Position numbers and translations under genes: made by a program. A model generated the notes under the pieces. The model was not told where the DNA came from. It saw only the letters and a list, made by a program, of their open reading frames with translations, and made no database searches. DNA of 64,000 bases from a virus (lineage: Duplodnaviria; Caudoviricetes). The stretch lies in the IMG/VR virus record IMGVR_UViG_3300005546_000003, positions 1 through 64,000 of that record. One strand, 5' to 3'. Shown here piece after piece: positions 24,540 to 25,700 of this stretch. Within the stretch, counting starts at the first letter, position 1; every line of letters starts with the position of its first letter.

Positions 24540-25700
24540 ATGAAATACATGTTCTCCGACAACTGGGGGGAAGTCGATCCCTTTGCATCCATGAAACCAA
24601 AAGCTAAGGAATACTCGCCGAGTGAGGCCGAGTATCGCAGACTAACAAGGTTTGCCACTACTGGCACCGAGAGCGGAGTGCTCAGGAGCCCGATTGATGT
24701 TAGACTAGAGCTGCTACCAACGGTTGCTAAAGTAGCCAAGCAAAATATGGATTGGCTCTGGCGGAATTTAATGGGGCGGTGCTCTAATTGGAAGGCCAAA
24801 TCGTTGCTACTGGCTTTGAAGCTCAGTCAAAAAGAATCTAGGAGTGAGCGCACCAAGAGCGCCCGACAGGTGGCTGATCAGGTGCGCAACACTAGCCAAA
24901 TGGAGCAACTGATAGCTCAAACGCAAGAGCTTGGTGGAAGCTTGGGCAACGTTAGGGGAATGCTACAGGAATGGCTTAACCGGGCTAAAGTGTGGGAGCT
25001 ATTGAGGAGCAAGGAACGGGTGGCAGAATGGATAGCCCTAGCTCATCCAAAGCCTAGGGATAAAGAGCGAGAAGAGGTTTTCGGGTTTATTCTTGGCCGC
25101 GAGGGAGCGCAGGTTACTACTCCGGTTCTGGTAGTTTATCAGAAAGTCGAGAGCCCAGACACTCCATTTAGGCTCCGGATTAGCCTAGCTAAGCAATATG
25201 GAGTGCCACTAGGACTGCTTGGAGATGGATTGGCCAAAAGCCCTAAACTTTGGGCTCCAGCTGAAGAGCTGGGGAGAAGGCATTATAGTGTTCTCTCAAT
25301 AGCTGATGCTAGAAGGCTGGAAAGTTTAGGAGTCGATGTGGCTCCTCTGGTGAGCGGATTTATACACCAAGTTGCTGGCTGGGACAAGCTCCAAGTTGGC
25401 TGGGGGCTGATCAGGTACACCTTTTCTAGGCTCTTGCTGATGGGGAATAAAGAGCATCCACTATGGGAGACCCTAGCTAAATGGGTTGACCTAGTAGCCA
25501 GCGAGCGCAAGGGAAAGCTTGGGGCTAGTAGCCTTGGAATTGAGCTTGGGGGAGCTAGTAAGTTCCCGAGCACGATGCCTTGGGTTAGATATGAGCCAAC
25601 TGCTGAAATGCCGGAGCAACAAAACGTGCTGGTGGTTGAAGGGGAGTTTACTGAGGAGATTTGCAAGGCTATTTTTGCTTGGCTGGGGGGGAATGGGTAA
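24540..25700 (+). CDS. Divergent TROVE/Ro60-like paralog
   Basis: YRRLTRFATTGTESG (cf. Ro60 RLHRFLCFGSEGG), GRCSNWKAKSLLLAL, WIALAHPKPRDKER (cf. LFLCHAKPRDKEQ in the first copy), SPKLW; vWA DxSxS motif absent. Confidence 0.6.
   Translation: MKYMFSDNWGEVDPFASMKPKAKEYSPSEAEYRRLTRFATTGTESGVLRSPIDVRLELLPTVAKVAKQNMDWLWRNLMGRCSNWKAKSLLLALKLSQKESRSERTKSARQVADQVRNTSQMEQLIAQTQELGGSLGNVRGMLQEWLNRAKVWELLRSKERVAEWIALAHPKPRDKEREEVFGFILGREGAQVTTPVLVVYQKVESPDTPFRLRISLAKQYGVPLGLLGDGLAKSPKLWAPAEELGRRHYSVLSIADARRLESLGVDVAPLVSGFIHQVAGWDKLQVGWGLIRYTFSRLLLMGNKEHPLWETLAKWVDLVASERKGKLGASSLGIELGGASKFPSTMPWVRYEPTAEMPEQQNVLVVEGEFTEEICKAIFAWLGGNG

What the first reader, a model, noticed from the sequence alone, without database searches (positions are those of the whole stretch)
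24540..25700. Second, highly diverged TROVE/Ro60 paralog lacking the vWA metal site
Seen: this 386-aa hypothetical protein has colinear TROVE hallmarks (RRLTRFATTGTESG, GR...KSLLLAL, WIALAHPKPRDKER versus LFLCHAKPRDKEQ in the canonical copy, SPKLW) but no DxSxS MIDAS and a short C-terminal region. Established: the Ro60 N-terminal RLxRFLxxGSEGG motif and the LxHxKP motif are family features. Inference: a second RNA-binding ring, a decoy for or inhibitor of host Rsr, or a partner for a different RNA class such as the 20062-20179 element or the 40-kb RNAs. Two unlike TROVE proteins plus many Y RNAs suggest an undescribed RNP system.
Basis: partly seen in the sequence, partly recalled or inferred. 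Interest (0 to 1): 0.85.

Follow-up and report, generated by a model that had tools for sequence, protein, structure and literature searches.

The report
Second, half-recognisable Ro60-like phage protein
Besides a normal Ro60 RNA-binding ring protein, this 74-kb phage has a one-of-a-kind gene whose first half is a very distant Ro60 (TROVE) relative, whose second half matches nothing, and which has no metal-binding cap domain; what it does is untested.

Summary
The ORF at 24540-25700 (+) exists as described: 386 aa, with all four quoted motifs and no DxSxS. It is a singleton. I found no relative in 5.8 billion clustered proteins or 1.84 billion representatives, and Pfam, PHROGs, NCBIfam, PADLOC and PDB sequence searches returned no significant match.

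Against the subfamily of the phage's own canonical TROVE gene (20286-21647), only an 18-aa stretch scores. Against a diverse TROVE profile the N-terminal half is clearly homologous:
- hmmsearch gave 20.1 bits; the best of 1000 shuffles gave 2.8.
- hhalign gave 91% probability, E 8e-7, over residues 31-188.
- The closest relatives are Myxococcus phage Mx1-like Ro60 proteins (212-aa colinear BLASTP alignment, E 6e-9).
- Residues 136-200 and residues 1-135 each beat their own controls.

His169 aligns with human Ro60 His187, whose mutation abolishes Y RNA binding. The N-half is basic (pI about 10).

Residues 191-386 match nothing. The SPKLW motif is unsupported, and there is no vWA domain, intact or frameshifted.

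Most likely this is a diverged, vWA-less TROVE derivative that still binds structured RNA. That function is inferred only. None of about 150 other TROVE loci carries a second copy. I class it as a new variant of a known kind, of moderate interest.

The parts
24540..25700 (+). Gene for P0001, 386 aa, a singleton ORFan. The ATG lies 6 nt after the stop of the upstream zinc-ribbon ORF, behind an A-rich spacer with no clear Shine-Dalgarno sequence.
   Evidence: no homolog; the only sub-100-bit TROVE hit among 3093 ORFs
24636..25109 (+). Residues 33-190: TROVE-homologous N-terminal half, equivalent to about residues 25-210 of human Ro60. Basic, pI about 10.
   Evidence: hmmsearch 20.1 bits against best shuffle 2.8; hhalign probability 91%, E 8e-7; tool hhalign probability 75%, E 2.5e-5; BLASTP E 6e-9 to L156; pI
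24636..24677 (+). Residues 33-46: N-terminal TROVE motif (RRLTRFATTGT...), matching the RLxRFLxLGTDGG and LAQLATTGT motifs of Ro-type and Mx1-like proteins.
25029..25070 (+). Residues 164-177: LxHxKP helix. His169 is equivalent to human Ro60 His187 (needed for Y RNA binding), and Lys171 aligns with phiRo60 Arg178 (an RNA contact).
   Evidence: PMC11277228; PMC12135203
25110..25697 (+). Residues 191-386: unassigned C-terminal half. Low-confidence models predict it to be mostly helical. No TROVE, vWA or other family signal.
20286..21647 (+). Canonical phage Ro60 (P0002, 453 aa): TROVE domain plus vWA domain with an intact MIDAS site.
19711..19820 (+). YrlA-like Y RNA upstream of the canonical Ro60 gene. 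It scores below Rfam's gathering threshold but matches the full-length model.
   Evidence: 34 bits, E 2.9e-5; earlier notes

Best explanation
P0001 is an intact gene for a strongly diverged derivative of a Ro60/TROVE protein.

Shown:
- Residues about 33-190 are homologous to the first half of the TROVE helical-repeat ring. This half includes the helix pair that contacts the Y RNA stem in solved Ro60 complexes.
- The His equivalent to human Ro60 His187 is kept, along with several neighbouring basic residues.
- The vWA/MIDAS cap is absent.
- The remaining 196 residues have no recognisable relative.
- The nearest relatives are Mx1-like phage Ro60 proteins, not the canonical Ro60 encoded 3 kb upstream. 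It is therefore an old or separately acquired copy, not a recent tandem duplicate.

Inferred: the basic N-half still binds a helical, Y-RNA-like handle. Without the vWA cap, and possibly without a closed ring, the protein would act as an accessory or alternative RNA-binding subunit. It might hold or sequester some of the phage's many structured small RNAs, rather than acting as a full Ro60 ring that threads RNA 3' ends.

My confidence that it is TROVE-derived and vWA-less is about 0.85. My confidence in the RNA-binding role is about 0.4.
For: Identity:
- An unbiased tblastn of P0001 against 50,697 phage genomes returned two weak hits. One is the annotated TROVE protein of Myxococcus phage Mx1.
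- BLASTP to that protein gave E 3e-7, residues 138-188 to 140-194.
- BLASTP to an IMG/VR Mx1-like protein gave a 212-aa colinear alignment, 22-216 to 24-226, E 6e-9.
- BLASTP to the halovirus HGTV-1 TROVE protein gave E 2e-4.
- A diverse 26-sequence TROVE HMM scored 20.1 bits. The best of 1000 shuffles scored 2.8 and the reversed sequence scored -2.7.
- hhalign gave probability 91.5%, score 55, against a best of 30.5 in 117 shuffles. The tool's own hhalign against alignment A2 gave probability 75%, E 2.5e-5.
- The two sub-regions are each above their own controls.
- Specificity: among 3093 ORFs the HMM hits only bona fide TROVE genes plus P0001.

RNA-binding surface:
- His169 aligns with human His187, by residue count from the alignment. 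The H187S mutant loses Y RNA binding (PMC11277228).
- The phiRo60 RNA contacts R137-K193 (PMC12135203) fall in the stretch that P0001 conserves best.
- The N-half has pI about 10.

Context: the gene lies on the same strand as the canonical Ro60 and 3 kb downstream of it. No above-chance terminator lies between them, and a YrlA-like RNA sits upstream of the canonical gene.
Against: - Pfam TROVE gives no hit, even at E<=10. PDB sequence search finds nothing at E<=10.
- Many TROVE-invariant positions are lost: the N-terminal GG, the FYE/TYY motif, the E of TWE, and PFRF (alignments A2 and A3).
- By eye, only about 3 of 8 mapped phiRo60 RNA-contact residues are kept.
- The C-terminal half cannot be assigned, so neither a ring nor any particular fold is shown.
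- The unguided structure models are uninformative: AF2 pLDDT 37 and ESM pLDDT 0.44.
- The better model, with its Ro60 matches at Z 14, was built from a TROVE-containing alignment and is therefore circular.
- No Y-like RNA lies beside the gene.
- There are no homologs, so selection on the gene cannot be measured.
- The gene sits inside an amidoligase cluster, which could point to a different role.
Confidence: 0.55

Rival explanations
1. Mosaic protein. A TROVE-derived N-terminal module is fused to an unrelated C-terminal domain and has been recruited to a new job. One possibility is a helical scaffold or substrate-recognition subunit for the surrounding GGCT / COOH-NH2 ligase / ATP-grasp / amidoligase / GATase pathway.
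For: The C-half (191-386) shows no TROVE or vWA signal in any test, and its pI is neutral whereas the N-half is basic. The gene is embedded among the amidoligase-cluster genes and is translationally close-packed with a zinc-ribbon ORF.
Against: Related phages that carry the COOH-NH2 ligase (L002-L004) have no P0001 counterpart, so it is not a conserved member of that pathway. The C-half matches no family or paralog that could name a donor. Low-confidence models show helices continuing to about residue 323, which would also fit a diverged remainder of the ring.
Confidence: 0.2
2. Decoy or dominant-negative. The vWA-less protein competes for Y RNA or for a protein partner (host Rsr, the phage's own Ro60, or PNPase) and blocks rather than builds an RNP.
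For: The Y-RNA-contact helix is retained while the cap domain is lost. The phiLo phage Ro60 forms a minor dimer population and binds host PNPase (PMC12135203). Canonical-type TROVE genes are common in Acidobacteriota genomes, which may include the host.
Against: No interaction test was possible. The phiRo60 dimer contacts are reported in later helices (alpha16/18 or 18/20). That region is not recognisable in P0001.
Confidence: 0.12
3. Decaying relic. A duplicated or captured Ro60 gene lost its vWA domain and is drifting, with no function left.
For: The protein is extremely diverged and has lost most invariant residues. It is a singleton with no relatives. No other TROVE locus keeps a second copy.
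Against: An uninterrupted 386-codon frame in 50% GC DNA is very unlikely without selection. The frame fits tightly into a same-strand gene block. The part that is best conserved is the functional RNA-contact stretch.
Confidence: 0.08
4. Not TROVE at all. The motif matches would be chance similarities in a basic helical protein.
For: Pfam, PHROGs and PDB sequence searches are negative. The colinear block test against the neighbour's subfamily is not significant.
Against: The shuffle, reversal and 3093-ORF controls, together with the unbiased phage-wide tblastn landing on a TROVE gene, make chance very unlikely.
Confidence: 0.05

Closest known systems
Mx1-like phage Ro60 / TROVE proteins (Myxococcus phage Mx1 WNM70118.1; IMG/VR relatives L154-L156)
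   Same: They give the best sequence similarity: a colinear alignment over P0001 residues 22-216. They share the N-terminal ATTGT-type motif, the EWLN stretch and the LxHPKP helix.
   Different: They are 517-598 aa and carry a full second half of TROVE plus a Ro60-type vWA domain with a DxSGSM MIDAS site. P0001 has neither in recognisable form and shares only about 24% identity over its N-half.
phiRo60 of Thermus phage phiLo (PDB 9kop, 9l5y; PMC12135203) and the window's own canonical Ro60 (20286-21647)
   Same: Both are phage-encoded TROVE proteins with partner Y-like RNAs. The RNA-contact stretch around the THPRPRDEE / LxHxKPRDKE motif is the part that P0001 matches best.
   Different: They form complete doughnuts capped by a vWA domain. 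RNA and PNPase binding has been shown for phiRo60. P0001 matches this subfamily over only about 18-24 residues.
Ro60 / Rsr proper (human and Xenopus Ro60, 1yvp and 9nen; Deinococcus Rsr, 2nvo)
   Same: P0001 has an N-terminal RLxRFxxxGT(D/E)xG-type motif and the His187-equivalent residue.
   Different: NCBIfam Rsr and Pfam TROVE do not detect P0001. It has no vWA domain, no adjacent Y RNA, and no shown ring.
Genomes with two TROVE-domain proteins (Chen et al. 2014, PMC4201824)
   Same: This sets a precedent for two TROVE genes in one genome: 307 candidates in 303 bacterial species.
   Different: Those are bacterial genomes, and both proteins were detected as ordinary TROVE proteins. I found no report of a vWA-less, half-recognisable copy, or of a phage with two copies. 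Only one of 111 phage records that matched the canonical protein showed two places of match, and none of the 362 that matched the Mx1 protein did.

Membership tests
TROVE domain (Pfam PF05731) | Scores above the curated Pfam threshold | tested here: not met
   No TROVE hit for P0001 at E<=1 or in the own-genome search at E<=10. The canonical neighbour passes.
TROVE domain (superfamily-level homology) | Significant profile similarity to bona fide TROVE proteins, colinear with them | tested here: met
   Met for residues about 33-190 only.
TROVE domain | Complete helical-repeat toroid (about seven repeats) | tested here: inconclusive
   The second half (191-386) has no sequence signal. Models have low confidence there.
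Ro60 / Rsr | C-terminal vWA domain with a MIDAS site (DxSxS...T...D) | tested here: not met
   No D.S.S in the protein, no vWA Pfam or HMM signal, and no vWA remnant in downstream frames.
Ro60 / Rsr | Conserved His of the LxHxKP helix (human H187), required for Y RNA binding | tested here: met
   His169 aligns with it. Its role is taken from PMC11277228.
Ro60 / Rsr | Y RNA gene encoded next to the protein gene | tested here: not met
   Nothing is found in 23900-26400, and the 24055-24200 spacer folds no better than shuffles. Y-like RNA lies beside the canonical gene about 4.7 kb upstream.
Ro60 / Rsr | Binds Y RNA and misfolded RNA; forms a RYPER-like complex with PNPase | not testable with these tools

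The most novel reading that the evidence does not exclude
The phage runs a two-protein Ro system. The canonical ring and this vWA-less TROVE derivative would bind different members of the phage's unusually large set of Y-like and other structured small RNAs, or would assemble together on one RNA. That would give an RNP architecture not described for any Ro60 system.
Probability: 0.15. Interest if true: 0.7.

Novelty: new variant of a known kind. Interest (0 to 1): 0.45.

Why it matters
In every described case Ro60 is a single ring capped by a vWA domain, and the role of that domain and its metal site is still unclear.

A natural protein that keeps the Y-RNA-contact half of the ring but has lost the cap is a ready-made separation-of-function variant. 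Here it is encoded alongside a complete Ro60 and several Y-like RNAs. It could show what the N-terminal half can do alone, and whether phages use more than one Ro-type protein to handle their small RNAs or to interfere with host RNA decay.

The case also shows that a subfamily-restricted profile can miss such relatives entirely.

The weight of the finding is limited. It is one gene in one uncultured phage, with no relatives and no functional data.

Tried and rejected
Searches for homologs of P0001:
- The word-indexed search of 5.8 billion clusters, both whole protein and region 25-195, found only P0001 itself.
- The exhaustive phmmer search of 1.84 billion representatives also found only itself.
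- IMG/VR pattern scans found nothing.

Family libraries and structure searches:
- Pfam, PHROGs, NCBIfam and PADLOC gave nothing significant. The only entry was DUF4391 at E 0.009, below its cut-off.
- PDB sequence search found nothing at E<=10.
- The ESM Atlas feature search gave no usable hit. Its structure rows all have TM<0.5 on a low-confidence model, for example a HEAT-repeat PPIase at 0.41 and TsaE at 0.39-0.46, so I gave them no weight.
- Single-sequence AF2 was useless, with pLDDT 37.

Tests against the co-resident subfamily alone:
- BLASTP, hhalign and HMM find only the short motif.
- hhalign -glob gave nothing.
- My colinear block-chain test was not significant. An earlier, slower version of that script timed out.

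Synteny:
- The closest TROVE-bearing phage contig I could fetch (L049, 64% identical TROVE) shares only the TROVE gene with the window.
- The ligase-bearing loci L002-L004 have no counterpart of P0001.

Other checks on P0001:
- The C-half has no intragenomic paralog.
- No frameshifted vWA domain lies downstream.
- I found no RNA element next to the gene.

Foldseek and VIA matches of the TROVE-guided model to Ro60 structures are reported but not counted as independent evidence.

Full report
**The object.** The window is 64 kb of a 73.6-kb IMG/VR phage genome with direct terminal repeats. ORF 24540-25700 (+) encodes a 386-aa protein, P0001. No DxSxS or looser D.[ST].[ST] pattern occurs anywhere in it. 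The ATG follows the stop codon of a 113-aa zinc-ribbon ORF by six A residues. The gene lies in a long same-strand block. No terminator-like sites above chance lie between it and the canonical TROVE gene 3 kb upstream.

**The canonical copy.** ORF 20286-21647 (P0002, 453 aa) is an ordinary short phage or bacterial Ro60.
- It hits Pfam TROVE at 3e-10, with weaker vWA_Ro60 and VWA_2 matches below Pfam's cut-offs.
- It hits phrog_850 'RNA-binding protein' at 4e-43.
- It matches the solved Thermus phage phiLo Ro60 (9kop, 9l5y) at 1e-22, and its MIDAS site is intact.
- It has thousands of relatives, many of them in Acidobacteriota genomes.
- A YrlA-like RNA sits just upstream, at 19711-19820 (34 bits, E 2.9e-5, full-length model).
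- Earlier notes of this scan describe four such RNAs there, a fifth at 12250-12343, and a ten-domain RNA array at 39905-40854. Apart from the YrlA hit and a tRNA-like hit at 40177-40258, I did not re-test these.

**P0001 has no close relatives.**
- Nothing but itself appears in the 5.8-billion-cluster index, in the exhaustive phmmer search of 1.84 billion representatives, or in IMG/VR.
- Pfam, PHROGs, NCBIfam, PADLOC and PDB sequence searches return no significant match.
- Pfam's TROVE model does not see it even at E<=10.

**The first tests looked negative.** Against P0002, BLASTP aligns only 14 residues (E 0.015). hhalign against 24 close relatives of P0002 gives 2.7% probability. A 38-sequence HMM of that subfamily gives 3.4 bits, driven by 18 residues. 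A colinear chain test over 15-24 conserved blocks of that subfamily is indistinguishable from shuffles (z 0.1-1.4). Judged against the neighbour's subfamily alone, the 'colinear hallmarks' would be rejected, apart from one motif.

**A diverse profile changes the answer.**
- An unbiased tblastn of P0001 against 50,697 phage genomes returned just two weak hits. One was the annotated TROVE protein of Myxococcus phage Mx1.
- Direct BLASTP to the Mx1 protein gives E 3e-7, with residues 138-188 aligned to 140-194.
- I fetched 14 diverse phage TROVE proteins and Mx1-like and HGTV-1-like proteins from IMG/VR.
- BLASTP of P0001 then gave colinear alignments to several independent subfamilies. The best was L156, with 212 aa aligned (22-216 to 24-226), 23.6% identity and E 6e-9.
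- A 26-sequence diverse TROVE HMM scores P0001 at 20.1 bits (E 1.3e-5 for 1002 sequences). The best of 1000 shuffles scored 2.8 bits and the reversed sequence scored -2.7.
- hhalign gives 91.5% probability, E 8e-7 and score 55 over residues 31-188. The best of 117 shuffles scored 30.5. The session's own hhalign tool, run against alignment A2, gives 75% probability and E 2.5e-5 over residues 83-190.
- Run against all 3093 ORFs of at least 120 aa in the window and about 150 TROVE loci, the same HMM hits every genuine TROVE gene at more than 100 bits. Its only other hit with E<1 is P0001.

**How far the homology extends.**
- Residues 136-200 alone give E 6e-7 to 2e-6.
- Residues 1-135 alone are marginal by hhalign (E 0.04-0.19), although they align at exactly the colinear position.
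- Against an HMM of the N-terminal 135 residues of Ro-type and Mx1-like proteins, residues 1-135 score 10.4 bits. The best of 2000 shuffles scored 7.5. The alignment runs 33-121 to 38-128 and covers the N-terminal motif and the GR..K..LLLAL block. The whole N-half is therefore TROVE-derived.
- Residues 191-386 give nothing against any TROVE or vWA profile, so SPKLW and the later 'motifs' are unsupported.
- No vWA remnant exists in any downstream + frame, and the C-half has no paralog in the window.

**Structure.**
- Unguided models are uninformative: AF2 pLDDT 37 and the Atlas ESM model pLDDT 0.44.
- An AF2 run with a TROVE-containing alignment (A3) gives confident helices for residues 21-230 and pLDDT below 50 beyond that.
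- The confident part superposes on phiLo Ro60 (9kop, Z 14.1, rmsd 4.7, 180 aligned) and on Deinococcus Rsr (2nvo, Z 14.0, rmsd 3.6, 198 aligned). The next unrelated fold scores Z 8.5.
- Because the alignment supplied the fold, I treat this as a consistent threading result, not as independent evidence.

**Functional residues.**
- Counting along the human Ro60 alignment printed places His187 in the LSHLKP motif, and P0001 His169 aligns with it. The H187S mutant fails to bind Y RNA (PMC11277228).
- In phiLo Ro60 the residues whose mutation weakens Y-like RNA binding are R137, K141, K142, R163, R169, R173, R178 and K193 (PMC12135203). They fall in the stretch that P0001 conserves best.
- By eye, from the printed alignments, P0001 keeps basic residues at three of these positions (R139, R156, K171). 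This mapping is my inference and was not computed.
- The N-half has pI about 10 and the C-half has pI 7.

**Interpretation.** The identity claim is well supported: this is a TROVE-derived protein without a vWA domain, closest to the Mx1-like clade rather than to its neighbour. The mechanism is inferred. I think it most likely still binds a helical RNA handle through the retained surface and acts as an accessory or alternative RNA-binding subunit. The rivals are a mosaic protein recruited to the surrounding amidoligase pathway, a decoy or dominant-negative, a functionless relic, and chance similarity. They are weighed in the Rival explanations section.

**Comparison with what is known.**
- Phage Ro60 proteins with Y-like RNAs are established (PMC4201824; PMC12135203).
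- A few bacterial genomes carry two TROVE proteins.
- I found no description of a phage with two copies, or of a vWA-less half-TROVE protein.
- None of the about 150 TROVE loci examined has a second copy within its flanks.
- I therefore class this as a new variant of a known kind.

Noticed in passing
window 19711-19820 (+): A full-length match to Rfam YrlA (RF02553), 34 bits and E 2.9e-5, below the gathering score of 69. It overlaps a weak tRNA match at 19773-19843 and lies just upstream of the canonical Ro60 gene.
   Followed up: partly
window 40177-40258 (+): Rfam calls a tRNA here (39.9 bits, above gathering), but ARAGORN finds no tRNA anywhere in the window. It looks like a tRNA look-alike inside the gene-free stretch 39905-40854.
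   Followed up: no
window 22422-33335 (+): P0001 sits inside a cluster of gamma-glutamyl cyclotransferase, phiEco32-type COOH-NH2 ligase, ATP-grasp, two Amidoligase_2 proteins and a class-II glutamine amidotransferase. The cluster is interspersed with zinc-ribbon and Lar-like ORFs.
   Followed up: partly
L049 (Ga0214473_10000232, 79.4-kb contig) 10001-11335: The closest fetched relative of the canonical Ro60 (64% identity) sits in a phage contig whose flanking 10 kb share nothing else with this window. The Ro60 gene appears to move between phages as a cassette.
   Followed up: partly
L060-L139 (genome contigs): Canonical-type TROVE genes at 49-56% identity are abundant in Acidobacteriota (Terriglobales) genomes from soil and peat. 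This hints at the phage's host range or at the source of the gene.
   Followed up: no
window 24531-24542: P0001's ATG is preceded by the upstream ORF's TAA stop and a run of A residues, with no clear Shine-Dalgarno sequence. Translation may depend on coupling to the zinc-ribbon ORF 24192-24533. In-frame ATGs also occur at codons 4 and 18.
   Followed up: no
P0001 residues 357-376 (window 25608-25667): The best local alignment of the C-half to TROVE/vWA profiles, though non-significant at -5.6 bits, falls on the last strand and helix of the Ro60 vWA domain (the ...G-F-S/T-D/E... motif). It could be a vestige of the lost domain or chance.
   Followed up: partly
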